IMG/VR virus record: IMGVR_UViG_3300047090_000102
Coordinates: 1-64,000 of that record
DNA length: 64,000 bases
Origin: a virus
Direction: 5' to 3' (one strand)
Under the pieces are notes generated by a model, which ran no database searches, was not told the origin of the DNA, and was given only the letters and a program-made list of their open reading frames with translations. The translations under genes were made by a program, and so were the position numbers. Positions 2,789 to 33,200 of this stretch are shown here, piece by piece (the stretch's first letter is position 1; every line of letters starts with the position of its first letter).

Positions 2789-4077
2789 GCCGACTCTCCC
2801 TTGACATGGCCATCCTCCATCACGATTGCTGCAGGACCGCCCTTTAACATCTCGCACCAGACCTGATAGTCGTGAGTCTCTGCCATCTCCGCGAGCAAGG
2901 CCATGCTCTTGTCGTCCAGCAGGGACCCGTCGCGCACGCGCAGCACTCTCAGTTTAGGATTCGCGGCCATGGCGATCGCGCAGGACACTCTCAACTGCTC
3001 GGCGTCTGAAGCCTGGTCCAGCGGGAGCCCGTTGTACGTCACCGCCTGCTGGCCAAACCCAAGTCCTGGGACCGGCATCTGAGCGCGGGAGATAGCGTCC
3101 ATCTTCTGTTTATCGCGTAAGTACATGCGCCCAGTAATGACCTCGGATTCCTGCTGCTTTGCCTTTACTTGCGCGGCTAACGCATCCCGCTCGGTGCGGC
3201 GACGGATAGAGTCATTCGTCTTCTGCGCCTGCTGCAGTTCTACCTGGAGTACCGCAGTATCGATCTCTTGGTCTGTCGGCTCTTTCAGGTTTGCGAGGGC
3301 TACGCTTAGTTCTTGCGCCTCCAATTCTCTGCTTCCTGCGAGCGAGTCGAGGTGCATCGCTTCTTTACGCAACTCCTCAGCACGTGCGCGGTAATTTAGG
3401 GCGATGTCTTTGGCCGCAGCAATCCCATCAGTGAACTGCTGCTTATTCCGCTTGAACGCCTCGCGGCTCAGTACGATCTCACCGTTAACCTTGCCAGCCG
3501 AAGCGATCTTATCCACCATGGCACCAGTGTCTATCGCTACGGCCGGCAAGTCCTGGGGCAAGTTGAAGCCGGTAAGTTGTCCTTCGATTCGTTTGATTTC
3601 GCGATTCAGGTCGGTACGCGCATCGAAGTCAGTTTTGTTCTGACGGTCGAGCGCTTCTGGGTCAACGTCCAGTTTCACCATTCCGCGCAACGTTTTGAAT
3701 TGCTTGTCGCGGTCCATCCGCATGAACTCCAGTGGGTCAAACGTGAGGTTCCCGGTCAGAGCATCGAGCATCGCCTGGGGACTTGGATACTTGGCTCCAT
3801 CGGCGTTCTCTACGGTGATCGTCGAGCCGGACTTGGTGAAACGCCGCGTCACCTTCAGTTCGCCCAGGTCAAGCTTGACGACGGCCTTCTCCTCGCCTTT
3901 GCGGATTGGCTGATCTTGGATGTTCTTCGTCCCGGCGAGCGCCCAGAAAATGCTATCCAAAACACTGGTTTTCCCTTGGCCATTCGCTCCGCTGATCTCA
4001 ACCATACTGCCAGACGGTTTGATTTCGACTACGCTGATTCTCTTGATGTTGGCGGCGCTAAGACTCAGAATTTTCAT
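2785..4077 (-). CDS. SMC/RecN/SbcC-like AAA ATPase (recombination-associated)
   Basis: Walker A GANGQGKTS at the N-terminus, a long coiled-coil middle, and the Walker B-like LRVLRVRDGSLLDD near the C-terminus. Confidence 0.7.
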   Translation of the reverse strand: MKILSLSAANIKRISVVEIKPSGSMVEISGANGQGKTSVLDSIFWALAGTKNIQDQPIRKGEEKAVVKLDLGELKVTRRFTKSGSTITVENADGAKYPSPQAMLDALTGNLTFDPLEFMRMDRDKQFKTLRGMVKLDVDPEALDRQNKTDFDARTDLNREIKRIEGQLTGFNLPQDLPAVAIDTGAMVDKIASAGKVNGEIVLSREAFKRNKQQFTDGIAAAKDIALNYRARAEELRKEAMHLDSLAGSRELEAQELSVALANLKEPTDQEIDTAVLQVELQQAQKTNDSIRRRTERDALAAQVKAKQQESEVITGRMYLRDKQKMDAISRAQMPVPGLGFGQQAVTYNGLPLDQASDAEQLRVSCAIAMAANPKLRVLRVRDGSLLDDKSMALLAEMAETHDYQVWCEMLKGGPAAIVMEDGHVKGESA

Positions 4078-4104: not shown

Positions 4105-4491
4105 TCACCACGCAGCGTTTCTGTCATTTTCCGTGGCCCAGTACGCTTCCATTTCCGCTTTGAAGTCGAACTTGTAATCAATCGGACCGTACTCTGCCCA
4201 ATCGTCTTTGCTCTGAATTTTAGCTTGAACTATTCCGGCCAGAATGCAGCAAGGACAGTTCCCCGCTAACTTCCGCAGATCGGCCAGCCCGTAATCAGTC
4301 TTGTCATACGTGACACAGGCTTTCAGTTCTTCGATGGGTCGCTGCGGGTCTTCGATGCCGTACTTGTGCAGATTGCAGACTCTCGCCGGATTGCCGACAC
4401 ACCGTGCCTCGTGCGCTTCCATCGAAGACTTGCGGTAGCCGATCTTCTTGCAGAAGTCACAGCCGTACCGGATTACATGTCGTGATCGCAT
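4105..4491 (-). CDS. Cys-rich hypothetical protein
   Basis: ORF track. Multiple CxxC pairs (CDFC, CPCC). Confidence 0.55.
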   Translation of the reverse strand: MRSRHVIRYGCDFCKKIGYRKSSMEAHEARCVGNPARVCNLHKYGIEDPQRPIEELKACVTYDKTDYGLADLRKLAGNCPCCILAGIVQAKIQSKDDWAEYGPIDYKFDFKAEMEAYWATENDRNAAW

Positions 4492-4492
4492 A

Positions 4493-4765
4493 TCAATTCA
4501 TCTGCGCTTTTGCCGCTTGCCGTGCCATCGTTGCCGTGTTCACATCCAGCCACAACTCGGACGGAATGTCTTTCTCGGGGTCAAGCAGCACGTCTCGCGG
4601 CGCGGTACTGAGCCACTCTGCCATTAACCCAGAGGTATCAGGAGGGGTGGAGAAAGCAATGGCCTCACCCTTTGCGACATGAACGCGGATCTTACCTACC
4701 AACTCCTGAAGGCTGTCGGCATCCGTAATCAACACCTTGCCTATGACTGCTACCCAATATGTCAT
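4493..4765 (-). CDS. hypothetical protein
   Basis: ORF track. Tightly packed between its neighbours. Confidence 0.5.
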   Translation of the reverse strand: MTYWVAVIGKVLITDADSLQELVGKIRVHVAKGEAIAFSTPPDTSGLMAEWLSTAPRDVLLDPEKDIPSELWLDVNTATMARQAAKAQMN

Positions 4766-18233: not shown

Positions 18234-21200
18234 CTACTGAAATACGCCGTCCCGCAAAGCCTCGGAGCGTTTTACCGGGTCTTTTAACGTCTGTATCTCC
18301 TTCTGAATGTAGATCGGCATGATGACTACCCGCTCCGCCGGCGTGCTTTCCGCCATGACTTTCTTGATCTGGCCCAGAGTGAACCTCGGCAGCATCCGCT
18401 TGAATTCATTGGTCCGCATCTTGAAAAGGATCTTCTTAACATCAGCCTGGGTCAAGTGTCCGCTCGCGATTCTGGCCTTGTTGTCCGTGTACTCCTGCTG
18501 CTCTTCTGGCGTCCGTGGTGGCATCGCCTGTCCTGCGAACCGGTGCATCAGAATCTCTGCCGGGCTCATGCTCTCTGACTTCGGGAACTTGGTGCCCAGT
18601 AGAAGCCGCAGCGCTTCTCTCTTGCCCGCGCCTGGCTCGGTGTCACGCTCGTATTGCTCGTACTGCATCAGTGGGCCGATAGAACTCTTGCCCATGTGCT
18701 CGCCGATCTGTTTCGCTTTCGTCACAGCACTTCCCTCCGGGTTGTAAACAAAGTCGTTCTTGTAGTCACGGTTCTCGATCACATCATGCGCCGCGCGGAT
18801 CAACGTCGACGGCGTGAATTGGGACTGTGCCAGAGAGGAGAACGAACGCTCACCCTTGGCAGTCTCGATCATCTCCGCCGGCAGCTTTGAAAGTCCGAAT
18901 CTGGGCGACTTGGCATTCGGTTCGTTTGTAACTTTCTTCATGAATTGGTCGTAGGCTCCGTATCCCACAGCCACTAGAAGTCCTAACATCGCCAGCATGC
19001 TGAGTGCGTGCCCGCGAGCCTGATCGTCCACTCCGGACTTGAATGCTCCCTCGAAGATGTTCTTGTACGCCTTGAAGCGCCCGAGGTGGTATCCGTTGAA
19101 CCAGGTCAGCCACCGGGTCCGCATGATGTCGCCTAGGAGTTTGGAATCGAGCGGCCGCGTCGGAACTTGGTAGTCGGGGAAAATCTTGTTCGTCTCCCGG
19201 ACCGCTGCCTCCATGCTCATGCCGTCGGCGATCTTTTCATGCACTGACTGCATATACAGAATATCGTTCGAAACGAAAGCTGCGGCGTGACTTGCCCGGC
19301 GGATCGCCTGTACCGGGTCATCGCCCTGACGCAATCCCATGTAGTCCCGCATCTTCTCTTTGAACGGCTTGTTATTTTCCATCATCCCGGTCATCAGTTC
19401 GACGAAGTGCTTATTCAGGTCGGACACGTATTGCTTGTGACTCATCAGGTGGGCGCCCGCGTCCAACGCTCGGATGTAGTCGGCGTCTTTTGTCACTGCG
19501 GACTTTATGGCTTTAGCCATTGTCGACGTTACATTGCCTAAGCCAAGAACGTTGGCGTTTGCCACTGCACCACGGCTGACTACGGCGAAGTCTGCCATGT
19601 TGAGAACATGGAGTAACGGATTCAGCAGGATCGACGTTTGCGCCACGTCCGCGAGTTTGCCCAGAATGCTTGGCGCGTTTTCTTTGTTCAGTTTGTCGGC
19701 GAATCTCTGAAGCACCTCGGCGGTCCTGGGCTCGAACTGGTAGCCTCTGAACTGCGGCAGGTTCGCGATCTCTTTCCATCCGCGAGGGGCATATAGTCCT
19801 TTCTCTGGCAGCATGGCGACACTCGCGAAGGCCGGCGAGGACTTCCACGCATCAAGGAACCGCTTGGCTTCTACGGCCCGGGTGAGTTGCAGGAAATCCG
19901 CCATCGTCGTGGCTACTGGATCCCGGAAATAGGTCAAACCGGTATTTTCCTCAATTTCGTCCTTGGTCGCTTGGGTGATTGACCACTCGCCACGATTATC
20001 GTCAATAAATCGTTTTCCGACAGTAAAGCCCGATGGAGCCTCGCCCGACATAGGAGTAGGCTGGCCGCCGTCCCATCCGGTCACCTGGCCGTCTTTGAAT
20101 GACACTACCCGTCTGGTGCCCTCGCCGTCGTCCAGGGAGTACATGACGCGCTGTTTTAGAGACGCGGCAGTCTTACTGAGTACATTTCCCCGTCCGCTGC
20201 CTCTGGAGCCCTCTGTGGCACGCTGGAGCTGGTTCTGGCGATCGCGGACCACCCGGTGGAGGTACGTGGGGTCAAAGTCTGCCGGGATGTTGGCCTCGCG
20301 CAATTCCTCGTAAAGCGCCTGATTGGCCTCGCGCAGAGGAGTCACGTACTGATCAAGGATTCTCTGCTGCTCTGGGCTGAGCGACGTTGGGCCTGCCTGG
20401 GGAACCAGCAAGGAATCGATATGGCGGTCCACGGCCAGCCGGTCAGCGACCGTGGTGTCTTTGCCGACCTCCTGGAGAGTCTTCGCTGCGGTAATCGCCG
20501 ACCCTTCAAACTTGCGGTCCAGGTCTAAAAGGTTCGTTTCAAGGTTACGGGACTTGGCGAGGTTCTCTTTCCGCTCTGCCCGCGCTTGCCACTTTGATGG
20601 CAGTACGTGGGACTGGATCAAGTCGCGGACAGGTGCTGCCGCTTTGGCTATGGCTTCTACCAGTGGTCTGACGAGAGCGCCGGCTCCGCGTTCAATGACT
20701 GGTGTCGCGTGAGACAGGACTGCTGGTACGTTGAGATTGGCGAATCCACGCTCTCCTTTGCGCTCATCCTCTTTGAGTGAGTACGCTGGCGGTTCTACTG
20801 TAGGCTTTTGGCCTTCTCCGCCCGCATTTTCCTGATCTCGTCCGCGATTGCCCGGCGGCGCGATACCGGTCGGGCCTGCTGCGCTACCTTCGCCAGCCGC
20901 TGTAAGCCCTCGCGTACCTTCTCCGGGTCGGACTGAAAGGGCTGCTCTGTTGGTTTGGAGTCTGACGATTGAGAGTTCATGGAGCTCCTTTGCTCGGTCA
21001 AACATGCCATTCATAATCTCGGCGATCTTTGCGGGACCGTGATGGCGTTCGAGTTCGTTGTAATATTCGGTGAACCAGTCGGCGGCGTCTTCTGGTGATA
21101 GAGTGTTTTCGTCTGCTGCGATCTTGGCTGCCATCTCCGCGACTTTCATGTAATCCGGGTAGGCTTGATAGTAGGAATGCTTCAGTGCTGTGCCGAGTAG

Positions 21201-24200
21201 CTTCTTGGCGACCGGGTGATTCAGTAATCGCGGATAGGCGTCTTCCGGCAGATGCTCGGCAATCTTTCCGGCTCCCAACTCACGTTGTACTCCACCGTGG
21301 AATACCTCTTCTTGGAAGATATGTTCATCCCTCGCGCCAGTGAAGAAGTTCACGCCTTTGGTCTTTGCCTGGGGAGACTTTGCCGCTTGGTCGAAAGCAC
21401 TGGCCAGTGACTCCATGTCCTGCCGTACTTTTGCGTCTGTGGCCATTGGAGCAAAGTTACGCAGGTTCTGTGCAGTTCTTGCGGCCTGTGTGACGCTTAG
21501 ATTGGCTCCAACGATTCCATGCGGCGCACCGATGGCGGAACGTGCCATATCAAACGCGGCAGAGGACAACTCGACGGTCGGCGGAATCGAGCCTACCGAG
21601 GGCCGATACACGGCTTTGATCTCGGTAACTTCAGGAGCGTTCTCTCCAGTACTCTCCCATCCGCTTGGCGATTGCAGCGAGTAGGCTGGCTCTTCCTCCT
21701 CACCTCCCTTCGTCTCTACTTCCGCCGGGTATGTCTTCAGCACCTTGTCGAGGATATTGGCGGCATTGAATCTCTCTGTCCCGCTCATTGGCAGATAGTA
21801 GATCGGCTGTAACCCCTTCTCGTAGACAACACCCATGCTCTTGAGTTGCTCGCCCATTCCATGCCCTGACGGTATGAACTGCACAACCCTGTCACGGCCA
21901 ACACGCCCGCGCACGATTCGAGTCCCGCCCTCCAGCCGATATGGTGTGTTGTTTTCGAGAACATCCTTGATGATCTGGGAGGAGTTGACCGCGCTCTTGT
22001 TGCCGGTGATCTTCGCCAGGAGTTGGGCAATCTGCTCTTTCGGAATCGCCACTCCGACCACGCGCTGGCCGGACTTTGAGTCAACGACGGTGTAGACTTC
22101 AAGCCTCTGGGTCGAATCGTGGATGGCATTCCACCAGTGCATAACCGCGCCGCCGATCAGATGGTTGGGAGTCGTGTTGTGGGCCGGTGCCGCCTCGTAT
22201 TGTTTGCCCCACTCCTCTTTACCCCATGCAATCGGGTCCTTGGTAGCCGCTTCGCTATCGGCCAAGCTCTTCTGCGCACGCTCGAGAGCTTCCTCTTTTT
22301 CCTTGATCGACTCCTCTGTGTAGTATTGCGGATAACGCTCGCGGGATTCCTTGGTGGACTTCAGACTCCACTCTGCCGACTGAACAGAACTCTTCGCCTT
22401 GTCTATGGTCTTCTTGGACCACTCTGATATCTCTTCGAATCCAGGTATGTACGCTGGTTTCTGGTCAGCGCCGTGACCCCATTTACCAATCTCAAGTTTG
22501 TGATTTGCAACCTTTTCCCACTTGCCGTAGTCCGGATACACGACATAAGAGGCTGGCTCCCTGTGGCCGTCTGCTCGTATGATGTCTTTCGCGTCCACTA
22601 CGAACGCCAGTTTCCCATCACCGTTTCGCAGGATGCGCGGATTGAGTTTAGAATCCTGCTTCATCTTCTTTTCAAGTTGCGCGACCGAGAGCCGTTCAGT
22701 ACGAACATCGGCGTCCACTGGATAATAGAATGTCTCGGCCCCGGTCTTAGGATCACGTGCGATCACACGCTGCTCTTTAACAGTGAAAGTGTCTCCGGGC
22801 ATCTGCTTGACGCCGGTATCGAGCGTTCCGTTCTCAATCGCGTCCTTTACCGCTGCTTCAAATATGTCATAGAAATAGTTGTAGGCTCCGTTCTGAACAT
22901 CAGGGTCAAGAGCCAGGAGACGATTGAGCAAGCGGGTCACGTTGACCATGTCGGCGTCGGGCACGGTCGGCGCACCGCCTTGCCCAGTCTTCAACACCTT
23001 TAGGTCTTCCAGTATCTGCATCCCGGTAAGGTTCTTGCCTTTCGATTCTTTAGTCGCGGTCTCCGGCACCTCTGTGTTCTTCAGGAGACTTTGATAAAAC
23101 GCCCTGGTCGCGGCCTTACCCTGGTCGGTCTCGAAGTTGACTTTGTCCATCATCTCCGTGCCTTCGTTCGTCTTGGTCTGGCCTTTGGACAAAGCTTCGA
23201 GGGACCCCAGACGTCGGGCAATGGTCGAGATGAACCGGCTCTCGCCTCCCATATTGGTCTTGAGTAAGGCATATTCTGGAGGTTGAACCTGATTGCTTCG
23301 ATGTGTGCGACCCAGCATCTGCATCGCGCGGTCAGCGCTCCAGCCGACTTGCAAAGTGATATGCAGCCGTTTCTGCTGGTTCTTCATGTCCTTACCAGCA
23401 TGGAGCGAGATCCCGGTACCGCCGGCAGTTGACAGAATTGCTACGCGCTTCTTGCCAGCGTTGAAGTTTCCTTCCTCCACTTTGTTGATCTTGTCGCGCG
23501 CTACACCCGGGTCACCACGAGAGACGAACTTGCTCGTCGTCGGATCGAAGCGTTCTTTGCGTCCGGTGATCTCTGCGACCTTACTGTGACCACCCAGAGA
23601 TTCAACGAGGATATCTAGTGGGTTCGCTGGCATCTGTAGGTTTTGCTTCAGTTCTTTGATGAGTGCATCGCGCTCGGCTACGGCCTGCGGGTTGACCACG
23701 GGAATATCACGCCCGCTTTCGTCCTTCTGTGTCGCCAGAACCTTGATCGGTTTGCCTTCCGAGTCCACATCATCAATCCATTGCTGGGTTGGATAGTGCT
23801 CTTGCACCAAGTCCATCAGCATTTCAGCCGGCCCAAAGTCGTAGTCCGGTATCTCGTCCGTATCCTCGAGTCCCTTAAACTTCAGTTTCTCTCGGTTCTG
23901 TGCGGCCTCGTTCGTGTTGACAAGGCTGATAACGACACTCTTGCCATCGCCCAGCGCCTTGTTAGCTTGCTCGACCGCCGTAGGTATCTTGAGAGTTGTG
24001 AGCAGGACGTTGAAGAACCGTTGCTGGCTCGCGTAGAAGAGAGACATGAAGCGGGATTTCGCGCGACTGCCGCCATTCACCGTGTTCTGGATCGTATCTT
24101 CTACACGCTGTGATACCAGTTTCCACGCCTTGACCGCGCTGCGGTACAAGTCCTTCTGCTCGTCGTTAACCGTGTGCTCGATCTCGGAATACTGCACACC

Positions 24201-27200
24201 TTTATAACTCAAAGTCCGCGATACGTACTTGCCCTGCGACTTCAGTTCTCGCGCGATCATCTCCATGGCACTCATGCCGCCGGCAGAAATCTTAGCGTTG
24301 AACTCTTCAAAGCCACCAGGGAACGGTGTGCCAGCACCCCAGATGCCGAGCCGGTCCATGTATCCCAGGTTTGTCACGTCTGTCGCTGGCGTTGCTGAAA
24401 GGAAGAATGTCCTTAGCTTGGGATTACGTTCGAGGAACTTTTTAACTGTGTCGCCGGTCAGCGACACCTCTTGTTGGCTTCTGGCTACGGCGTTTTTTAA
24501 AGCTTGACAGTTATGGACTAGGAGACCGCCAGCGAAGTAGTTTCTGGTTGCAGTCTCGATATTGTGCACTGTACGGCAGACTCTACGGTTTCCAGGGAAT
24601 CCAGTATCTCCTGGTTCTTGAATCTCATTACAGTCCAGCCTACAGATTGGAGGAACACCTCTTTGCGCCGATCTGCCAGTTTCACCTTTATCGCTTGGTG
24701 TCCCTCTCCGTCCACCTCTATCGCTAACTTCAGTGACGGTTGCGAAATATCCAGTTTGTAGTGAGTCGGCAGTCCAGTCCCGCGATGTGTGTTGGTCGTT
24801 ACCACGAACTCCGTTGGCCACCCCAGCTTCTCTGCCAGCATTCGCTGCCGCAAGGACAGCGGCGTTCCGTTCCCGCCATTGAGATGAGCGAATCCTTTCT
24901 TGCGTGAAGCTTCTAGCGCTACGGCCCTGACTGCTGGACTGCGTAATGGATTCGTTGGGCCGTAAAGATGCTGCTGCATTTTCTCTTGAACGTCCGGGCG
25001 CTTGCGGACTTCTTGAAGAATTGCAGACCACTTCTGCTTTCCTTCTGGAGTTATACGCCTTTTGGCTTTCAATTCCTGATTGTTCATCCGCCACTGTGCC
25101 GAGCACTTCTTCGTACAAAAACGACGTTTTATCGTCCCCCTGATACTGTGAGTAGTACTCCGCTTCGCTACAAATGGCTGCTGGCACAAAGCACAAATGA
25201 GGTTGAAGGGCATCAGGTACAAAGTCTAATAGCGCGACGGTGTCATCGCAAGCCAATTCGTCCGAAGGAACGTATCCACGATTGGCAGTCCAGACTGGGT
25301 GATTGCCGGTCATCGGCGTTTCGTGCACGATTGTAAAATCATTTACGGTCTCACGTCGGAATAGATAAAGTACTGGCGTAGCCTCTATTTCCCCGGTGTC
25401 GTGATTAAATCCCCAAACGCTATCTCCTATGTGTAGTTGCTCGATTGGTACAGGACCGGATGGGGTTTCTATCTTCGTACCAGCAGGAACGCACTCATCG
25501 AAGATAACGTGTGCACCCTCACCCTCATCATTGCCGCGTATCCACTTCTCCAATTGAGCAATGCGCTTGTTGCCTTTTTTGTCCTCGGAACGAAGCAACG
25601 CATACGTAGAAAACATGATCCCTTCATGATCAATCGGAGTTGTGGCCGGCTGCTTCATAAAAGGCTTGATCGTCTTGGAAAGGGTCGTCGCGCCGATACC
25701 GTCGAGGTCGCGGATGGCGTCCTGCATCAAATCCCACTTCTCTGATACCCACACAAGACGGCGTCGCCCTTGGCGCCAATTGTCGAATAACACACCGGCT
25801 GCTTCTCTGCCCTTGCCAACCCCGGTGCCGTCGGAACTAGCGGCTGCGGCACGATGACCGCTTGGCAAAATGATCTGGTTCTGCTGCCCGGCGAGAGCGA
25901 TCGGCTCCATCTGGACTGCGGAAATGCGCCCCTCGGTAACTACAGACTGCGGCAAGCGCGGCTGATATGTAATCTCTGGCAGTGAGACAGTCGCCATAGA
26001 TTTACTTTCGACTATCGGGCCAGGGTGTGTAGAGCCTTTGAGTGTTGGGCGATACGAAACAAAAGCAGACGTGTCCTCAGTCTCCGCTTGTTGCTCGCGG
26101 GCCTCGCGTTCGAGTTGCAGTCCTTGTTTCTCTGCTTCTGTTGCTGGTGGGGCTTTGGGCTTGCCTTCGATGGGCTTACCCAGAAGCGAGGACACTTCCT
26201 GGTGGACTACTTCGAGGTACGGCCGCGCCCATTCGCCCAGGTCGGCGATCATCTTCTTGGACCATGGGTCAAACTGGATTATTCCTTGCTGGAAGTGAAA
26301 TCCGCCGACATCGACCATGTCGTTGATGTCTTCGGGCGTGAGTTCTTTTTCGCCGCCTTCTTCCAAACTGTATGCCGGTGGCTCTTCTCCTTCTGGCTGC
26401 ACCTCACCGCGGCGTGCACGCAGCCGCTTCAGTGCTTCCTCGCGATTGTCGGCCGTGAAGCGTTCGGCAGGTTTGGGCTTCGGAGTTGCAGGCTGTATCG
26501 CGCGGGGTTTCTTGGCCTCTAGTTGCGCCAGTTTCTGTTTTAGCGCTTCGTACTCTGGGCTGCCTGGCTGTGGCTGACCTTCTATTTTCTTGCCGAGCCT
26601 TTCTCCTGCTGCTTTGCGAATTTGTTCGCGGAGTTTTTCGGCTGCACTTACTGTAGACGGTCGTTCAGCGTTGACTGCCGGAGTAGAGCCTCCAGCACCT
26701 CCAGCGGTTTGCACTGGTGTACGAGGTCCTGTTGCAGGTTGAACTTGGGATTGCTGTAGTGGAACTGGTTGATTGCCGACTCCGGCTGCGACTCCTCCAG
26801 GTTGGCCAGGAACTCGTTCAGGTCCACCTGTAGGTTGAATTTCTGCGCCAGTGCCTCGCTCTCCTCGTAGTGGTTGTCCACTGCCTGCTGTGCCAGGAGC
26901 TTTAGATTCTCCCACACCAGTTGCGGCGATTTCTTGCCCAGTGCCTGCTGTGCGGGCGGTTCGAGTCGGGACTGGCCTTGTTTCTGCAACATTCTCAAGG
27001 AGAGTATACGCCTGTTCGAGTGTACTAACATTGCCCTGTACAGTAGAATCCCAGTTTTTTAGGTCACCGCGGTTTGCTTCCCTTTTGAGATAGGCCAGAC
27101 GCCAGCTAGGCTTCCCCTGCAATTCTTGTATTTCATCGGTTATCCGCTTACGGCCGAGCGAGCCCATTCGGGACGGCGTAGAACCGTCCTTGTCGATCAC

Positions 27201-30200
27201 GATGATTCTGGTAGCAAAGCTTGTGCCGTACTTGGCGTACTCCTTGCCAGCAATACGGATGTTGGCGCGAACATTGTACTTTTCGGCTATCTTGTCGAAC
27301 CACCTGCCGGCGCCACCCGGGGCCGTGAGTGCCGCTCCGCCGTTGGCATCGTCTGCGCGTCCACCGCCCAGAATGGTGACAAGACGCCCGCCAGGAGCCA
27401 GACGCTGCAATGCGGAATCTACGTGATTGAATCCATAGACGTTGCGGTTTTTGACCGCCTGCCCTTCTGCGCCTTTTAATGCGCCAGCGGAAAACGGCGG
27501 GTTCATGATGATCACTGTCGGCTGGACAGAACTCTTGAGCAGGGAGTTGATGATCTCGCCGTCGTGGGAAGTGATGTTATCGAACCCAACGTGCTTGAGC
27601 ATCGCCTGTCTGCGCGTCGAGATCTCGTTAACGTGAACCTCGGCGCCAACCGCTTTGGCGAATATTGCCAGACCACCGTTACCGCCGGATGGCTCCAGAA
27701 CCACGTCATCGGGTTTTATGCCAGCGACTTTGGCCACGGTGTAGGCCTCGGTTGGCGGAGTCGAGAACTGCTGGCCCTTCAGTTGCTCATCTGTGCGCGT
27801 GCTCTGCGTTGGCAGACGGTTCATGAGGTTCTCGCGCAACATCGCCAGACCTTCGATCGCTGGCATGCCCATCAGGTTTTCGCCGGCGTCGAGCAGGTAT
27901 TTGTTGACACCTGCCTCCATGGCGTCGGTCGCGTCTTTGGGTGTCCACTCGCCCGAAACCCGCGAGGATCCAAAGTGCTCGGCAGCCAAGCGCTCGAACT
28001 GCGGCATATTTCCGAGGGATTCTCCAGTTATGAGCTTCTTATAGACTGCGTCTGCCAGTTTAGCGGCAGGGGTTGCCTCTGGCTCTTTATCGACCGGAGT
28101 GACTTCGCTCTTGAGTGCCCAGCCCTCTATCCGCTCATGAGTTTTGGGGTCTTGTAGGCGAACCCTGTTTCCCTGCTCGAAACCTACTTCGTACTGCTTT
28201 CCGCGATATTCTACCAGATCACCAATTCTGTAAGTTAGCGGGCCGGGAGGTTGAGGCTCATATCCTGGCAATGGCTGCGCGGCGTATCCCTTCCGGCGAA
28301 TCTGTTCATCCCTGATTTTTTGCAGTTGTTTATTCAACGCTGGAGTTGCGCCGCCGTATGTTCCGCCTGTAGTCTTGTTTGCCTCTAGTGCCTTTTCGAG
28401 TTGGGTTACGCGCTCGGCCAGTGTCTGATCTGAAGCCTCACGTATTTCTGCTGGCTCTGATACACGAGTTTGAGGGCGCGCTTCGTAGCTTCCTTCTTCT
28501 GTTGGAACAACGTCGGCTTTCTTGATTGTAAATTTCGGCTCTGCCTTAGTCGCCTGCTTGAGTTCGTGTACTTCCGGCGCCGTCAGTGGCTTTGCTTCCG
28601 CCTCACGGTTTGGCGCTTCATCGGATGGGTGGACTTCCCACTGATCAACACCAGACCACCGGGACCACAAGTCCTGACCCCATGCTTTGGCCGCTTCTTC
28701 TGTGGGGAAGCGTAGAGCGTTGTAGGCCCAGTTGGCATCGCCTTTGCCTTTGACGCCGACCTTGAAGCTCTGCTGTGGGCCCGGTGGCGTGGCGGTCTCA
28801 GCGGCCTTGTTGAGCCAATATCCTGGTCCGGTGTTGGCGGCAATATTCTCGCCGAAATCTTGGAAGGTAAGGGGTTCGTGGTCTGGCTTATCGAGATATT
28901 CCGAGTAAGCCTTTTTCATCTCATCGAGAGTCGGTATTCTTCCACCCTGGTTTTTGCCGCGCTTTTCGAATGTTGGCTGGAGTACGTGCTTCAGTTGCTC
29001 CTGGTACCACTTATCGTCATATCCACTTCCGATACCACTAAGCCATTGGCTTCCTTCCGAACTAGTCTCTTTCTTATTGGCCTGCGACCTATCATCCATC
29101 CATTTGTTGGTAGCGTCGGTCTCGATCTGGAAACTGTTTATTTTACGTTGAGCATCCGCGATCGCCTTTTCGCGACTTTCGTTCATCCTTGAAATTGAAT
29201 AGCCGTCCTGGTCGTTTACCTGCCAGAGCTTTCCACTCTTGCCGGCTGAATACTCAGTGACAGTCCAGCCTTTCGGTAAATCGGGCGCTTCATCCGCGCG
29301 GAACTTAGCGATCTCCTGCTTGTCTGGCATGGTCGCGTGGTTACGCACACGCTCGCCTTTGATCCGGTTGCCGTCCTTGTCGACGGCTGCTACGTCTACA
29401 TTCCATCCGTTCTTTGGCCAATTGGCTCCAGGTTCAGGTGGATGGAACGCAATGACTTCGTCCCTCTGGCCGCCGTATCCATTGACGATACGGCCGGGCT
29501 TGAAGAACCGCGGCAGCTCTTCATCACTCAAATAGTTTGGACTGGTCTTCGCTGGCGGCGTCTTTTTGGCTGGGGCGGCCGCGGGAGTGGCAGGTGCGCC
29601 TTCCAGGATTGCCAGCCTCTCTGCCTTGCCTTCTGCGGACAGGTACGGCGTGTTGCGCACGACCTGCGTCATTTTGACACGCTGCTCTGGCGTCATCTTG
29701 TCGAAGTTGACGCGCCACTGGTCAGTTATGAGATCAGACTTTACCTCGGTCGGGGCTCGCTCGCCTTTGGTGTCGATGACGAACGTGCGGCCATCGCGGC
29801 GAATTACTTTGTCTCTCGATGGATCGAAGTCTGATATCTGTTGGGCATCCAGCTTCGGTCCACCGCGGCTTTGAGGCGGAAGCTTCAGCAGTTTGGCGTC
29901 CCTCTTGGCCTCTATCTCCGCGAGCCTCTTCTTGAGATCTTCGTACTCGCGGCTGCCTGGGCCGGGCTGACTAGGCTTTGTAGTTGCCGCCGCTTGAGGT
30001 TCAGGTGCTTTCTCTTCCTCCTGTGCCTTCCACTCTTTCACGTCTTCCCGGTGTCCGATCTTCTGCATAAACATGGAATCGCCGAGATACCCGGGCGTGG
30101 CGCTCAGATCGTTTTCATCGACACCATATAACTCGAGTCCGTCCTGGCCGCCACCTACGATCTGGTTGACAACAAACCGTTGCCGCTTATCCCCGTATCC

Positions 30201-33200
30201 AGTATTGATCGTTTCGAGCACATCGCCGACGCCGACATCCATCGCTTTGAGTTTTCCGTTCTTGTCCCACTCTGCTTGGAGTTCAGCTTTACGCTCACTG
30301 GCCTCTTTCTCCGCGTCGTCTGCACGCTGCTTTTCCGCTGCCTTCTTGGCCTCCTCGCGCCGCTTGATCTCCGGATCGTTCTTCACGGTCCAGTTCTGAT
30401 CGGCCGGGTAGGTCTTGCCAACGGATGAGGTGCTTCCAATCAGAGACGCGGAGCCGGTAACGCGCACACGCAGCTCGCCCTTGCGGTTCGTCTCGACTTT
30501 TCCGTTGATGTACGCGATCGATCCGCCGAAGCCTGGGACTGCCTGGTAGACCTCGTCGCCATCCTTGGATTTCATGCGGCCATCGGCCCATGTGTCAGTA
30601 GCAGCCGCGCCAAGAAATTGCTTTATCTTGGCATCAAACTTTTGTTTGCCATTCTGCTGTAGCAGCTTAATGGTGCCATCTAGGGTCCGCTGCTCGGTGC
30701 TGTGTTGATGGATTTCAGTGAAGAGACGCGCACCGGTGGTTATCTCATAGGAAGACCATCCCTGTTTGTCGTGTTTTGCGATACTTCCGCGCGGCGGCAC
30801 GACGGCGATACGGTATTCCTCGAATCCAGGCAAGAGGTATTCGGTTCCCTTGAGGTGGAGTTTTTCGCCACCATGGAGAGGATTAGTGAACTCCACTCCA
30901 CGCTTGAGAACCAATGGCTGTGCAACCTGCGGTGGGTTATCGCGCTTGAATGTTGGAACCTCCGGAGACTTGGCAGAAGGGGCCGGTTTAGCGATTGCGC
31001 CTGTAGCCCTATCAACAATTTCCCCGATTTCCTGCCTGATTTGGTGCAGTAATACCGCTTCATGTCCGGGGATTTTCTTTCGTCCAGCAATCAAATCACG
31101 TTCGGCGGCGCGCAGAGCTTCGAGTTTTACGCCCTCTTCCGAGTCTGCTGGTATGCGGGCCGGGCTACGCTTCTCCTGCGCTTTTTGGGCGGCGCGAACA
31201 GGCTCGGCTGCTCCAACTCCCTGGCCAGTTGAACCTGATCCCTGACCTTGGCCGGGAGTCTCTGGAGTACGAGTTTGAGCTTGTCCTGCATCTGTGGATA
31301 AACCTGTTGAAATTGTACCACCAAGCGGTATCGTCTCCTGGCTCCCGTCCTTCTTTGATACGACGATATGGTCTACTGGGACATTTTGGCCTTCAAGTTG
31401 CCTTCCGCCTTTGTATTGTGCGGCGACCTCTGGCTTTACGTATCCAATCGTCAAATGCGGGCGATAGGAGTCGAACGTGTCTTTGTGGAAGCTACCTGCG
31501 CCTTCTACAGCCTTACGCAGCGCCAGCAACTCAGGAGTGCTCTCCAGTGGCGCAATAACCGGTACAGCGCCGTCAGAGTGCTCGCTGGCAGGGAATGTAT
31601 CGGTCGGCCCAATAGGGACCTCGAACGGGGCGATCTTTGACGCCGCTTCTTTGATCTTCTCGACCGCTGCCGGACTGTCATCCTTCAGGCCATACCGCAG
31701 GGTCAAATGGGGGTGATCCTCCCGGCCCTTTGGATTCCCGCCGAAGTCAGTCGGCATCAGGTGCTCGTCTGGGATGGACGCCGCGGCTGCCGCGTGAGCC
31801 TGACCGAGTGCGCTCTCTGGCGCGATATTGATCTGAGTCGAGCCTTTCTTGAACTCCTGCTCTTCTGTCCCGGTACGCTCGCGGAACTGCTGGACCGCTG
31901 CTTCGTGGAATCGTGCTGCCTCATCCCAGTACTTCTTGCGCTCTGCTGACCCTTCAGGAAACTCCCGGCCCGAGGTGTACAGCCGGTGTGTTTGGTCTGT
32001 GATTGCCTGTATCTCAGGGATTACGATCTGGATTTCAGCACTCAAGCCTGATGGCATCTGAGCCTGAACATTAGCACTTGCGTATCCTGCCTTGTTTTCA
32101 CGCGGTTGCAGGAAGTTGTCTTCGACTCCAAGGACGTTGTACCGCTGCTTCAGCGCGGCGATGATCTGGTCTTTGGCTTCGACCGTGTCCGCTACGATCT
32201 GGCTGGCCAAGTAGTCGCCAATGGTGTTCGGCGGCTTGTCGTCTTCTGTCTTCTCGCCCAGGCGTTCCAAGTTCTTTTGCGGTCTGAGTCGGCCGCCGTG
32301 GGCTTCGTCAAAGTGGGCTCCTTGGACGCTCGCCGCGATCTCAGAGAGCCCGGCTGCCAGTTCTGGCGCCGCTTCTGCCGCGAGCCGTTCGTTCTCAATC
32401 TCGCTACCTGACGGCTGGACTATCTGACGGCCGGCTTCGTGGTCGTAGTCTCCAACCTTGGCTACGGCTACTTCTGAAGGCTCCTTGGCTGGCTGCGCGA
32501 GTTTCGCGGCATCGGCTGGAGATTCGTCTTTTACTTCTACCCGGGGAACCTGGCCCGGTGCAAGTTGGGCCTCCTGGTGTACCTTCTGTACCGCCGGTGA
32601 ATCGGTGGTCATTGCTCGTCCCATAGCAGGGACATCGCCAGCGTTCGGTAACTGTGGTGCTCCAGTCTGACCTTTGGTGCGTTCTGCCTTTATCCGGGTA
32701 GCTTCGGCTGAGATAGCGGGCGAGTAGTCGGCGTTCGCCGGTAGTCCCAGGTTCTTCTTGGCCTGCATCCAGTCGTCGGTTTCGTTCTGCGCCACGGTGG
32801 CGGATGTTGCTGCGGTCTCTGGTTTGGCGGGTGGTTCGCCTATCCATGTAGGCGGACGTGAGGGATTGGCCGCGTCTCTCTTGATGAGTCCATCCTGTTC
32901 CATTCTATCAATGAGGTGTGTGGCCTCTGCGTAACCAATATTGAGGCGGCGCTGCAAGAGAGATGTTGATGCCTTGCCGAATTCAGCCGAAGCCTGCTTT
33001 GCCTGTTCGTATTTGTCGCTCACTGCCGGTGATTCCGGCGTAGGTGTCGATGGTTTCGGCTTGCCGCGGTCAATCACCCGCTGTACAGCCGCTGCAGGCT
33101 TTGTTGCAGGCGTTGCAGGTTTATCTGCCGCTTTGGCCGCTGCCTCCTGCGCCTTGTTGTGCCCCTGGACGGCGTCATTTATCAACGTCTGCGCGAGCTT

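What the first reader, a model, noticed from the sequence alone, without database searches (positions are those of the whole stretch)
20795..31324. Low-complexity linkers of the giant ORF look dual-coding: +1-frame ORFs coincide with a collapse of third-position G+C
At three G/P/T/A/Q-rich linkers, a same-strand +1-frame ORF stays open and reads like an ordinary helical protein.
- 31127-31324: ...MQDKLKLVLQRLPAKVRDQVQLARELEQ...
- 26648-27031 (ATG start): ...LVWENLKLLAQQAVDNHYEESEALAQKFNLQVDLNEFLANLEES...KPLEVLEALLRQ.
- 20795-21010 (weaker): ...DPEKVREGLQRLAKVAQQ...IADEIRKMRAEKAKSLQ. Its stop abuts the VEPPAYSL motif.

I counted third-position G+C in the giant frame by hand.
- About 65% over 100 codons of the methyltransferase domain.
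- About 20-25% over 26650-26925.
- About 20-25% over 31197-31322.

In the two linkers, GGA, CCT, CAA, CGA and ACT/ACA replace the GGC, CCG, CAG and CGC used elsewhere in the gene.

The Gly/Pro/Ala/Gln-rich composition automatically raises GC3 of the +1 frame. It does not explain why the giant frame abandons its own codon preference. Constraint from a second reading frame would explain it. Together with the intein-nested endonuclease this suggests two possibilities. The giant ORF may have been stitched across formerly separate small genes. Alternatively, frameshifting into the +1 frame may yield C-terminally distinct truncated products.
Basis: seen in the sequence. Interest (0 to 1): 0.7.

Follow-up and report, generated by a model that had tools for sequence, protein, structure and literature searches.

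The report
Hidden genes inside giant phage protein
Two floppy "linker" stretches of a 5,564-residue phage protein are read in a second frame as well, and in the clearer case that frame encodes a conserved, well-folded small protein of unknown function, which is why the giant gene's codon usage looks wrong there.

Summary
The giant ORF (18234-34928, minus strand) and the three +1-frame ORFs exist. Third-position G+C is 0.22 over 26925-26650 and 0.21 over 31322-31197, against 0.67 in the methyltransferase domain.

Linker 2 (+1 ORF 26648-27031) is truly dual-coding.
- Eight independent metagenomic loci, including this window, show the same layout.
- The +1 translations are clearly homologous. The giant-frame translations are not.
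- dN/dS is about 0.27 in +1 and about 1.5 in frame 0.
- The +1 protein has 71 database relatives and folds at pLDDT 90. It has no known family or fold neighbour.
- Frame 0 is kept open by selection (P = 0.001-0.085 per locus by chance).

Linker 1 (31127-31324) gives the same signal, but from one relative only. Differences fall 13/5/2 on frame-0 codon positions 1/2/3, and +1 dN/dS is 0.15. Constraint returns to frame 0 downstream of about 31208.

Linker 3 (20795-21010) has no significant GC3 dip and no homologue, so it is untestable and probably chance.

Other GC3 dips evolve as ordinary single-frame coding, so a dip alone is not diagnostic.

The low GC3 is simply the A/T-rich second codon position of the nested helical protein. 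Expression is most likely by internal initiation. Frameshifting is not excluded.

The parts
18234..34928 (-). Giant host ORF (5564 aa), a polyvalent-type phage protein. Its parts are an FtsK-gamma domain, a LigT/2'-5' RNA ligase domain, a methyltransferase, and a Strawberry-notch helicase split by an intein.
   Evidence: Phage context comes from terminase and RecT hits.
26648..27031 (-). Nested +1-frame gene in linker 2 (127 aa from the ATG at 27031). An alternative ATG at 26992 gives 114 aa. The conserved domain runs from about 26968 (RLEPP) to 26651, with the stop at 26648-26650. It encodes a folded all-helical small protein of an unannotated family.
   Evidence: +1 translations are homologous across loci, z = 7-24. 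Eight called homologues score E 1e-27 to 1e-35. There are 71 representatives. dN/dS is 0.27-0.28. AF2 gives pLDDT 90, pTM 0.82.
26649..26972 (-). Frame-0 reading of the same DNA, giant aa 2653-2760. It is a G/P/A/T/Q/E/R-rich linker between the methyltransferase and the next module. It has no amino-acid conservation but is kept free of stops.
   Evidence: Frame-0 SW z is -0.5 to 4.5. Frame-0 dN/dS is about 1.5. P(open by chance) is 0.0013 in the window and 0.004-0.085 in four relatives. GC by codon position is 0.78/0.67/0.27.
31127..31324 (-). Nested +1-frame ORF in linker 1 (65 aa from a TTG; an internal ATG lies at 31291). The part under +1 constraint is about 31319-31209. The basic C-terminal tail (31208-31130) overlaps a stretch where frame 0 is the constrained frame.
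   Evidence: This is the only place in 1871 aligned codons versus L003 where an alternative frame is better conserved than frame 0. Differences by frame-0 position are 13/5/2, with +1 dN/dS 0.15 and frame-0 4.87. The pattern then reverses. The +1 stop position is conserved. Only one relative is available.
20795..21010 (-). Third +1-frame ORF (71 aa) in linker 3. It is not verified as coding.
   Evidence: Frame-0 GC3 is 0.48, z = -1.8. There are no Pfam or PHROG hits. No fetched homologue aligns with giant aa 4413-5374.
24510..25493 (-). Intein (giant aa 3146-3473) inserted at helicase motif II (FDE|C...VHN|C). It is absent from all relatives examined.
   Evidence: Sequence. Pfam Hint_2 scores E = 1.5e-4, below the curated cut-off. 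Alignments with relatives jump from aa 3146 to 3469-3472.
24518..25222 (-). A +1-frame DUF559/Vsr-like endonuclease ORF (234 aa) nested in the intein. It serves as a positive control for a true nested gene in this ORF.
   Evidence: Pfam DUF559 E = 2.4e-11. NCBIfam DUF559 E = 2e-7, far below the curated cut-off. Frame-0 GC3 z = -4.4. P(frame 0 open by chance) = 0.0003.
26973..27791 (-). Methyltransferase domain (giant aa about 2380-2652; EPSGGNGG and NPPF motifs). Its last residues (LEQAYTLLENVAETRP) overlap the start of the nested gene.
25482..26027 (-). N-terminal part of the Strawberry-notch helicase (AAA_34), downstream of linker 2 and of a window-specific insert.

Best explanation
A real small gene is nested, on the same strand and in the +1 frame, inside the flexible linker that joins the methyltransferase and helicase modules of a giant phage 'polyvalent' protein. 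A second, shorter nested ORF probably sits in the linker after the LigT domain.

In these stretches the +1 frame carries the amino-acid information. In linker 2 it encodes a roughly 105-residue all-helical folded domain. The giant frame only has to stay free of stops, and it reads the same DNA as a low-complexity G/P/A/T/Q/E/R peptide.

The frame arithmetic explains the composition.
- Frame-0 position 3 is the nested gene's position 2. That position is A/T-rich in a helical protein rich in Leu, Glu, Gln, Lys, Asn and Asp. Hence frame-0 GC3 of 0.2-0.3.
- Frame-0 position 1 is the nested gene's position 3. It is pushed to G/C because a T there can create a frame-0 stop. T-ending nested codons are only 3-8%.

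Shown:
- purifying selection on the +1 frame;
- selection for openness of frame 0;
- family membership and foldability of the +1 product.

Inferred:
- that both products are made;
- that the small protein is translated by internal initiation at an ATG at the end of the methyltransferase domain;
- that the arrangement arose when a pre-existing small gene came to lie inside the host ORF, by insertion into the linker or by read-through, in the way a free-standing endonuclease gene sits out of frame inside this gene's intein.

The function of the small protein is unknown. My guess is a partner, chaperone or regulator of the methyltransferase-helicase module with which it is always co-encoded.
For: - Same layout in independent assemblies. 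Eight loci share it: the window, L006, L007, L008, L009, L010 (partial), L014 and L015. Each has the methyltransferase end (..LEEAY.LL..V..SRP), then a low-complexity frame-0 linker, then the helicase N-domain (..DSSAYV.Y.PTLKG). An open +1 ORF lies over the linker. L010 is truncated and lacks the helicase.
- Smith-Waterman scores against composition shuffles: z = 7-24 for the +1 frame, -0.5 to 4.5 for frame 0, and -1.1 to 6 for +2.
- NG86 dN/dS for window vs L011: +1 0.28, frame 0 1.48, +2 1.17. For L007 vs L009, both embedded: 0.27, 1.53, 1.30. Differences peak at nested-codon position 3.
- A profile of four +1 translations finds eight gene-called proteins of 110-160 aa at E 1e-27 to 1e-35.
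- phmmer of the window's ORF finds 71 cluster representatives at E <= 1e-3. The best is 68% identical.
- Some relatives are domains of longer genuine proteins.
- The two stand-alone members examined differ. One (L012) has ordinary GC3 (0.63) and stops in the -1 frame. The other (L013) has GC3 0.73 and an open -1 frame.
- AlphaFold2 with 24 sequences gives pLDDT 90.0, pTM 0.82 and seven helices.
- Given each nested protein and host codon usage, frame 0 stays open with P = 0.0013, 0.085, 0.004, 0.022 and 0.018. It is open in all five loci.
- An ATG lies 16-24 codons upstream of the conserved ALG motif in five embedded loci. Across seven embedded loci, five have a Shine-Dalgarno-like duplex of -5.8 to -12.1 kcal/mol at proper spacing.
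- Linker 1.
- Positive control: the intein-nested DUF559 ORF gives the same compositional signature.
Against: - There are no expression data of any kind.
- In the window itself, and in L006, the candidate start codons have weak ribosome-binding sites (-4.0/-2.7 and -0.2 kcal/mol). Internal initiation is therefore less secure here than in the relatives.
- Linker 1 rests on a single pairwise comparison of about 37-50 codons. A single-sequence model is only pLDDT 64.
- A genome-wide negative correlation between GC1+2 and GC3 exists in 20 other genes of the window (rho = -0.36). Part of any linker's GC3 deficit is therefore generic.
- Function is unknown. There is no Pfam, PHROG or NCBIfam hit and no structural neighbour.
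Confidence: 0.8

Rival explanations
1. Programmed ribosomal frameshifting. Ribosomes translating the giant ORF shift into the +1 frame at the start of a linker and terminate at the +1 stop. This would give truncated products: N-terminus through the methyltransferase plus the helical domain for linker 2, and N-terminus through LigT plus a helix-hairpin and basic tail for linker 1.
For: - The +1 domain starts immediately after a folded domain of the host protein.
- The window's own start codons have weak ribosome-binding sites.
- In other proteins the family occurs as a C-terminal domain fused to unrelated N-terminal domains, so a fused form is plausible.
- Linker 1 has no convincing start. It has a TTG with AGGAG 11 nt upstream, and an ATG without an SD.
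Against: - Every embedded locus keeps an ATG just upstream of the conserved domain. Five of seven have a good SD.
- In L007 a +1-frame stop lies only 4 codons before that ATG, which leaves about 17 codons for any shift site.
- Gene-called and orphan family members start at the equivalent position.
- No conserved shift-prone motif was seen. The only slippery heptamer nearby (A_AAA_AAC at 27060) is of the -1 type, leads into the +2 frame, and is not conserved in L003.
Confidence: 0.12
2. No second coding function. The GC3 dip would be compositional compensation in G+C-rich low-complexity codons. The +1 frame would be open only because linkers lack hydrophobic residues, which are the ones with T at codon position 2.
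For: - GC1+2 and GC3 are negatively correlated along the giant gene (rho = -0.44) and in 20 other genes (rho = -0.36).
- The +1 frame stays open in 8-24% of synonymous resamples.
- Several GC3 dips (aa 101-160, 261-420, 2141-2180) evolve as normal single-frame coding.
- This is the most likely reading for the third ORF, 20795-21010 (z = -1.8).
Against: - For linker 2 this is excluded by the +1-frame homology, dN/dS, family size and fold confidence.
- Low-complexity windows in other genes only fall to GC3 of about 0.50, not 0.2.
- For linker 1 the 13/5/2 distribution of differences cannot arise from frame-0 coding.
Confidence: 0.03
3. Relic. The +1 ORF is the fossil of a formerly independent gene that the giant ORF now reads through. 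It is no longer expressed.
For: - Stand-alone family members exist.
- An orphan copy (L011) lacks methyltransferase and helicase flanks.
Against: - Two embedded copies that have diverged to synonymous near-saturation (pS 0.60) still show +1 dN/dS of 0.27.
- The +1 ORF is intact, with an ATG, in seven of the eight embedded loci. The eighth, L010, is cut by the contig end.
Confidence: 0.04
4. Assembly or sequencing artefact. Paired indel errors would put a truly in-frame helical domain out of frame.
For: One relative (L009) has evident frameshifts in its methyltransferase region.
Against: - The same frame relationship appears in eight assemblies from at least seven samples and at least three data sources (JGI, ENA, Logan). 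The window's own source is not known.
- Frame 0 is open and continuous with both flanking domains in each.
- No in-frame copy of the domain occurs in 120 methyltransferase-helicase homologues.
Confidence: 0.01

Closest known systems
Same-strand nested or overprinted virus genes in which an ordered protein overlaps a disordered region of a larger protein. Examples are paramyxovirus P/C (PMC3934983) and the nodavirus polymerase C-terminus with B2 (PMC4263755). In phages, lambda Rz/Rz1, with Rz1 embedded in the +1 frame of Rz (my own knowledge).
   Same: - Two same-strand frames are both used.
- One product is folded and conserved. The other frame reads as a fast-evolving disordered segment.
- Codon composition in one frame is skewed by the other.
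   Different: - The host here is an interdomain linker of a 5,564-aa multi-enzyme phage protein, not a small viral gene.
- The folded protein appears to be the older partner and the disordered host frame the newer reading.
- Up to three nested ORFs lie in one host ORF.
- Expression is untested.
[quoted passage not shown]
   Same: - A free-standing gene sits inside a tolerant, non-essential stretch of a host ORF.
- The host frame stays open through it.
- This window's intein (24510-25493), with its +1-frame DUF559/Vsr-like ORF, fits this pattern. It has the same compositional signature as the linkers.
   Different: - In the linkers there is no intein, so the read-through peptide stays in the mature host protein.
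- The nested linker-2 protein is not a recognisable nuclease.
- That preprint reports Vsr-like endonucleases on the antisense strand and an EndoVII-like one in frame 3. Here the Vsr-like ORF is same-strand, +1.
Polyvalent proteins of phages and conjugative elements, with the DNA methylase-helicase dyad (Iyer et al. 2017, PMC5512222).
   Same: - Many effector or enzyme domains lie in one polypeptide of a phage.
- The methyltransferase plus SWI2/SNF2 (Strawberry-notch type) pair is present (for the paper's description).
   Different: That paper's text has no occurrence of the words linker, low-complexity, frameshift, overlapping or intein.

Membership tests
Same-strand nested overlapping gene pair | Two ORFs open over the same DNA in different frames of one strand. 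| tested here: met
   The same holds in seven other loci.
Same-strand nested overlapping gene pair | Purifying selection on the nested frame, shown independently of the host frame. | tested here: met
   Linker 2: +1 dN/dS 0.27-0.28 against 1.5 in frame 0, and SW z = 7-24 against at most 4.5. Linker 1: 0.15 against 4.87, from one pair.
Same-strand nested overlapping gene pair | The host frame is maintained through the overlap beyond chance. | tested here: met
   P(open) is 0.0013-0.085 per locus, and the frame is open in all five tested. T-ending nested codons are 3-8%.
Same-strand nested overlapping gene pair | The nested ORF has its own start codon and ribosome-binding site. | tested here: inconclusive
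   An ATG is present in all embedded loci. The SD duplex is -5.8 to -12.1 kcal/mol in five of seven loci, but only -4.0/-2.7 in the window and -0.2 in L006.
Same-strand nested overlapping gene pair | Both products are actually made. | not testable with these tools
   This needs Ribo-seq, proteomics or reporter fusions.
Programmed +1 ribosomal frameshift site | A conserved shift-prone motif with a stimulatory element upstream of the +1 ORF. | tested here: inconclusive
   No conserved motif was seen. The A_AAA_AAC at 27060 is of the -1 type and is not conserved. No systematic search for +1 motifs was possible with so few close relatives.
Polyvalent protein (Iyer et al. 2017) | Several unrelated effector or enzyme domains in one polypeptide of a phage or conjugative element. 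| tested here: met
   FtsK-gamma, LigT, methyltransferase motifs, AAA_34 and Helicase_C_4 are present. The same window carries terminase, RecT and head-decoration genes.
Polyvalent protein (Iyer et al. 2017) | Delivery into the host with the DNA (virion packaging). | not testable with these tools
   No virion proteome is available.
Intein with an out-of-frame homing endonuclease | Splicing junctions (Cys1, terminal His-Asn, +1 Cys) and precise absence of the insert from homologues. | tested here: met
   The junctions read FDE|CVPAG...LLVHN|CQALKN. Relatives read FDESHNLKNAV with no insert. The Hint_2 Pfam hit is only E = 1.5e-4, below the cut-off.
Intein with an out-of-frame homing endonuclease | An endonuclease ORF in a frame other than the intein's. 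| tested here: met
   The +1 ORF 24518-25222 hits DUF559 at E = 2.4e-11.
Unannotated small helical protein family (P0121-P0197) | Significant full-length sequence similarity of the window's +1 ORF to family members. | tested here: met
   71 representatives at E <= 1e-3 and 16 at E <= 1e-10. The profile search gives E 1e-27 to 1e-35.

The most novel reading that the evidence does not exclude
The nested small genes may be selfish or semi-autonomous cassettes that colonise tolerant linkers of giant phage proteins out of frame, as free-standing endonuclease genes colonise inteins. Host frames would then be reshaped to read through them. Alternatively, or in addition, the linker-2 protein may be a dedicated regulator, immunity factor or chaperone of the injected methyltransferase-helicase weapon, with its dose hard-wired by nesting.

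The orphan copy L011 hints at cassette-like movement. It is 75% identical at the nucleotide level over the ORF only, its GC3 is 0.89 in a 0.55-GC locus, and its flanks are unrelated.
Probability: 0.2. Interest if true: 0.8.

Novelty: new variant of a known kind. Interest (0 to 1): 0.66.

Why it matters
Gene callers allow one frame per locus, so genes nested in long ORFs of dsDNA phages are systematically missed. This case gives three things.

- It is a clean, comparatively validated example of a conserved, confidently folded protein of unknown fold hidden in what would be annotated as a disordered linker of a giant anti-defence-type protein. The arrangement recurs in at least eight environmental phage-like loci.
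- It suggests that some 'low-complexity linkers' in polyvalent proteins are not selected as linkers. They may be the passive read-through of another gene.
- It offers a practical detector. A frame-0 GC3 collapse together with G/C-forced first positions ranked the two best-supported nested genes first and second among 44 candidate ORFs. It also produced false positives, which a comparative test removes.

The small protein is always co-encoded with a methyltransferase-helicase module thought to act in phage-host conflict, so it is a candidate new player in that system.

Tried and rejected
- Close DNA relatives in isolate phages and plasmids: none by megablast. None by tblastn of the nested protein either.
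- IMG/VR scans with the nested protein or sub-family profiles: nothing. The full 24-sequence alignment was too divergent to seed a scan.
- The closest relative of the giant gene (L003, 85% nt identity in the methyltransferase) ends just before linker 2. It could serve only for the N-terminal half and linker 1.
- A single-sequence word-indexed search with the nested ORF found nothing. Only the profile search and the exhaustive phmmer search worked.
- My first simple identity comparison looked equivocal: 33% in +1 against 32% in frame 0, with flat per-position identities. The cause was low-complexity frame-0 sequences aligning by composition, with many gaps. Composition-controlled scores and dN/dS resolved it.
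- Hypothesis that the helical domain is in frame in other methyltransferase-helicase proteins: rejected. There is no hit in 120 homologues.
- Hypothesis that all GC3 dips mark nested genes: rejected. The N-terminal dips and the +1 ORF 33953-34327 (z = -3.9) show normal position-3-dominant divergence.
- -1 slippery heptamer A_AAA_AAC at 27060: not conserved, and it leads to the wrong frame.
- Function by family or fold: no Pfam, PHROG or NCBIfam hit, and no Foldseek neighbour in PDB or BFVD.
- Exact-sequence look-up of the window's proteins: not in the collection.
- Linker 3: no homologue was available, so it was not resolved.

Full report
**1. The observation**

The minus strand carries an uninterrupted ORF at 18234-34928 (5564 aa). 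Its recognisable parts are:
- an FtsK-gamma domain;
- a LigT/2'-5' RNA ligase domain;
- a methyltransferase (EPSGGNGG and NPPF motifs);
- a Strawberry-notch helicase (AAA_34 and Helicase_C_4) interrupted by an intein.

Other genes in the window are phage genes: large terminase, RecT and head decoration. The protein is of the 'polyvalent protein' type (PMC5512222).

The hand-counted GC3 values are right:
- 0.22 over 26925-26650;
- 0.21 over 31322-31197;
- 0.67 in the methyltransferase domain.

I resampled synonymous codons from the gene's own usage.
- The linker-2 piece has z = -6.7. It is the most extreme of 44 same-strand alternative-frame open pieces of at least 60 codons.
- The intein-nested endonuclease ORF is second (z = -4.4).
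- Linker 1 is at -2.2 to -2.8 over the whole piece, with a much lower core.
- Linker 3 is at -1.8, which is not significant.

Openness of the +1 frame is weak evidence on its own. Linkers poor in hydrophobic residues have few T at codon position 2, and the +1 frame stays open in 8% (L2) and 24% (L1) of resamples.

There is also a generic negative relation between GC1+2 and GC3. It holds along the giant gene (rho = -0.44) and in 20 other genes of the window (rho = -0.36). Low-complexity windows elsewhere only fall to a GC3 of about 0.50.

**2. Linker 2 (26648-27031) is a real nested gene**

No close relative of the window covers this linker. Homologues with 50-56% protein identity do, and I fetched their DNA.

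In every one, the methyltransferase ends with LEEAY.LL..V..SRP. A low-complexity frame-0 stretch of 130-140 residues follows, and the helicase N-domain begins at ..DSSAYV.Y.PTLKG. In every one the +1 frame is open over the linker, and its translation is visibly conserved. Examples:
- SPQLVWENLKLLAQQAV / SPQLAWEQVKTLAAQSV / KPPVVAEQVKVLVQQAF
- PLEVLEALLRQSTLNDRL / PLKMLEAVIHTLLTNDRL / PLKVLEAVVKFLTESDRY

A naive identity count was equivocal, because low-complexity frame-0 sequences align by composition. Composition-controlled Smith-Waterman scores are decisive:

| Frame | z range |
|---|---|
| +1 | 7 to 24 |
| 0 | -0.5 to 4.5 |
| +2 | -1.1 to 6 |

Nei-Gojobori estimates agree:

| Pair | +1 | frame 0 | +2 |
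|---|---|---|---|
| window vs L011 | 0.28 | 1.48 | 1.17 |
| L007 vs L009 (both embedded) | 0.27 | 1.53 | 1.30 |

Differences peak at the nested gene's third codon position.

Database and structure evidence points the same way.
- A profile of the four +1 translations retrieved eight gene-called proteins of 110-160 aa at E 1e-27 to 1e-35.
- An exhaustive phmmer search with the window's ORF found 71 cluster representatives. The best is 68% identical.
- Context look-ups added L009, L010, L014 and L015 with the same embedded layout. That makes eight loci in all.
- AlphaFold2 with a 24-sequence alignment gives pLDDT 90.0 and pTM 0.82, with seven helices.
- Nothing similar exists in PDB or BFVD.
- No Pfam, PHROG or NCBIfam model matches.

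**3. Frame 0 is also under selection, but only to stay open**

I held each nested protein sequence fixed and drew its codons from the host gene's usage. Frame 0 then remains stop-free with these probabilities:

| Locus | P(frame 0 open) |
|---|---|
| window | 0.0013 |
| L006 | 0.085 |
| L007 | 0.004 |
| L008 | 0.022 |
| L009 | 0.018 |

It is open in all five. The nested genes avoid T-ending codons (3-8%). Their GC3 is above expectation in four of the five loci. The excess is large only in the window (0.79 against 0.62); in L009 there is none (0.75 against 0.74).

The two stand-alone family members I examined differ. L012, a domain of a 352-aa protein, has GC3 0.63 and many stops in its -1 frame. 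L013, a domain of a 504-aa protein, has GC3 0.73 and an open -1 frame. So both frames matter, and this is dual coding in the strict sense.

**4. Why GC3 collapses**

Frame-0 positions 1, 2 and 3 are the nested gene's positions 3, 1 and 2.
- A helical protein rich in Leu, Glu, Gln, Lys, Asn, Asp and Val has an A/T-rich second position (GC2 0.28-0.35). This appears as frame-0 GC3 of 0.2-0.3.
- Stop avoidance forces G/C at frame-0 position 1.
- The resulting [G/C][G/C/A][A/T] codons are GGA/GGT, GCA/GCT, CCA/CCT, CAA, GAA, CGA and ACA/ACT.
- They spell Gly, Ala, Pro, Gln, Glu, Arg and Thr.

The 'linker' composition is therefore largely a by-product of the nested gene.

**5. Linker 1 (31127-31324)**

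Only one relative (L003) is alignable here. I scanned all 1871 gaplessly aligned codons between the window and L003. The only place where an alternative frame is clearly better conserved than frame 0 is aa 1204-1248, window 31319-31185. There, +1 identity is 0.48-0.68 against 0.28-0.44 for frame 0, and GC3 is 0.16-0.40.

The substitution pattern switches within the ORF:

| Interval | Differences at frame-0 pos 1/2/3 | Frame-0 dN/dS | +1 dN/dS |
|---|---|---|---|
| 31274-31209 | 13/5/2 | 4.87 | 0.15 |
| 31208-31125 | 5/6/13 | 0.27 | 2.04 |

The +1 stop is at the same position in both sequences.

A single-sequence model shows two helices over the constrained part and a disordered basic tail over the part where frame 0 takes over. 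Its confidence is low, with pLDDT 64.

I read this as a second, shorter nested coding segment. The evidence comes from a single pair.

**6. Linker 3 and the other dips**

- The ORF 20795-21010 has no significant GC3 deficit and no family hits. No fetched homologue aligns with giant aa 4413-5374. Chance is the most likely reading.
- The dips at aa 101-160, 261-420 and 2141-2180 include the 124-aa +1 ORF at 33953-34327 (z = -3.9). They diverge from L003 mostly at frame-0 position 3, as ordinary coding sequence does.
- A GC3 dip is therefore a useful flag but not proof.

**7. How the nested protein is made (inferred)**

- Each embedded locus has an ATG 16-24 codons before the conserved ALG motif, at or just after the end of the methyltransferase fold.
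- Five of seven have a Shine-Dalgarno-like duplex of -5.8 to -12.1 kcal/mol at the right spacing. The window (ATGs at 27031 and 26992) and L006 do not.
- In L007 a +1 stop lies four codons before the ATG.
- Gene-called family members begin at the equivalent Met.

Internal initiation is therefore the best guess. A +1 (or -2) frameshift giving a methyltransferase-plus-domain fusion cannot be excluded, particularly for linker 1. The one slippery heptamer nearby is of the -1 type, is not conserved, and leads to the wrong frame.

**8. Origin (inferred)**

- In 116 methyltransferase-helicase homologues the NPPF-to-P-loop spacing has a median of 285 residues and a minimum of 218. The proteins known to carry the nested gene are among the longest (341-359) and have the most low-complexity spacers. 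The linker is thus an insertion of about the size of the nested gene.
- The family also occurs as a domain of unrelated stand-alone proteins in integrase- or transposase-bearing contexts.
- An orphan copy (L011) is 75% identical at the nucleotide level to the window over the ORF only. Its GC3 is 0.89, and its -1 frame is open exactly over the ORF, with unrelated flanks.

The folded protein is probably the older partner and the host-frame linker the newer reading. It also parallels the intein of the same ORF, which carries a DUF559/Vsr-like endonuclease gene in the +1 frame. Inteins with out-of-frame endonucleases were recently described in actinobacteriophages (bioRxiv 10.1101/2025.01.02.630785).

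**9. Comparison and novelty**

Ordered-over-disordered overlapping gene pairs are known in RNA viruses: paramyxovirus P/C (PMC3934983) and nodavirus polymerase/B2 (PMC4263755). Embedded +1 genes are known in phages; lambda Rz/Rz1 is my own recollection.

I found no description of genes nested in linkers of polyvalent proteins. The defining paper's text has no occurrence of the words linker, low-complexity, frameshift, overlapping or intein. I rate this a new variant of a known kind.

**10. Caveats**

- There are no expression data, and function is unknown.
- Linker 1 rests on one pair.
- The loci are metagenomic.
- The relatives used for linker 2 are distant, so synonymous sites are near saturation and the dN/dS values are approximate.

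Noticed in passing
window 24510-25493 (intein) and 24518-25222 (+1 ORF): The Strawberry-notch helicase is split at motif II (FDE|C...VHN|C) by an intein that all relatives examined lack. The intein's interior in frame 0 is Arg/Ser/Gly-rich filler. A DUF559/Vsr-like endonuclease (E = 2.4e-11) is encoded in the +1 frame. This matches the 'non-canonical intein' architecture of a 2025 preprint, but with a same-strand Vsr-like ORF.
   Followed up: partly
window 18234-34928 (giant protein): All nine cysteines of the 5564-aa protein lie in the intein or are the +1 extein Cys (aa 3146-3474). After splicing, the protein of about 5236 aa would contain a single Cys.
   Followed up: no
window 26364-26384, 21675-21695, 20775-20795: The motif E(E/P)PAYSL occurs three times (aa 2849-2855, 4412-4418, 4712-4718), each after an acidic or Gly-rich run. 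Homology with L007 and L009 stops at aa 4402-4413, just before the second copy. The stop of the third +1 ORF abuts the third copy. These may be processing or docking sites at module boundaries.
   Followed up: no
L011 (ENA ERZ1758404 scaffold, 2197 nt), 902-1234: This is an orphan copy of the nested gene, 68% aa and 75% nt identical to the window over the ORF only. It has no methyltransferase or helicase flanks. Its GC3 is 0.89 in a 0.55-GC locus, and its -1 frame is open exactly over the ORF. It looks like a cassette derived from an embedded copy.
   Followed up: partly
L003/L001 and L004/L002 (contig ends): Two independent metagenome contigs carrying relatives of the giant gene both end shortly after the methyltransferase domain. 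L003 ends at the equivalent of aa 2630, just before linker 2. This may be an assembly break at a hypervariable dual-coded stretch, or coincidence.
   Followed up: no
window 33669-34688 (giant aa about 80-420): This long N-terminal stretch has low frame-0 GC3 (0.28-0.40) but evolves as ordinary frame-0 coding against L003. Part of it is very conserved (position 1/2 differences 0.05-0.25). It may be a compositionally distinct module, perhaps of different origin.
   Followed up: partly
window 26073-26648 (giant aa 2761-2952): Between linker 2 and the helicase N-domain the window has an extra module of about 190 aa that is absent from L006-L009, L014 and L015. It includes an EPPAYSL motif and a conserved-looking DINDMVDVGGFHFQQGIIQFDPWSKKMIADLGEW segment.
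   Followed up: no
L009 8000-9000: The methyltransferase region of this relative is spread over three frames. These are probably indel errors of a long-read assembly, or a decaying gene. Meanwhile the nested small gene and the helicase ORF are intact.
   Followed up: no
window, 20 other genes: There is a genome-wide negative correlation between GC at codon positions 1+2 and GC3 in 30-codon windows (rho = -0.36, p = 7e-10). Ala/Pro/Thr-rich N-termini, for example in 48814-50406, have GC3 of about 0.47-0.50.
   Followed up: partly
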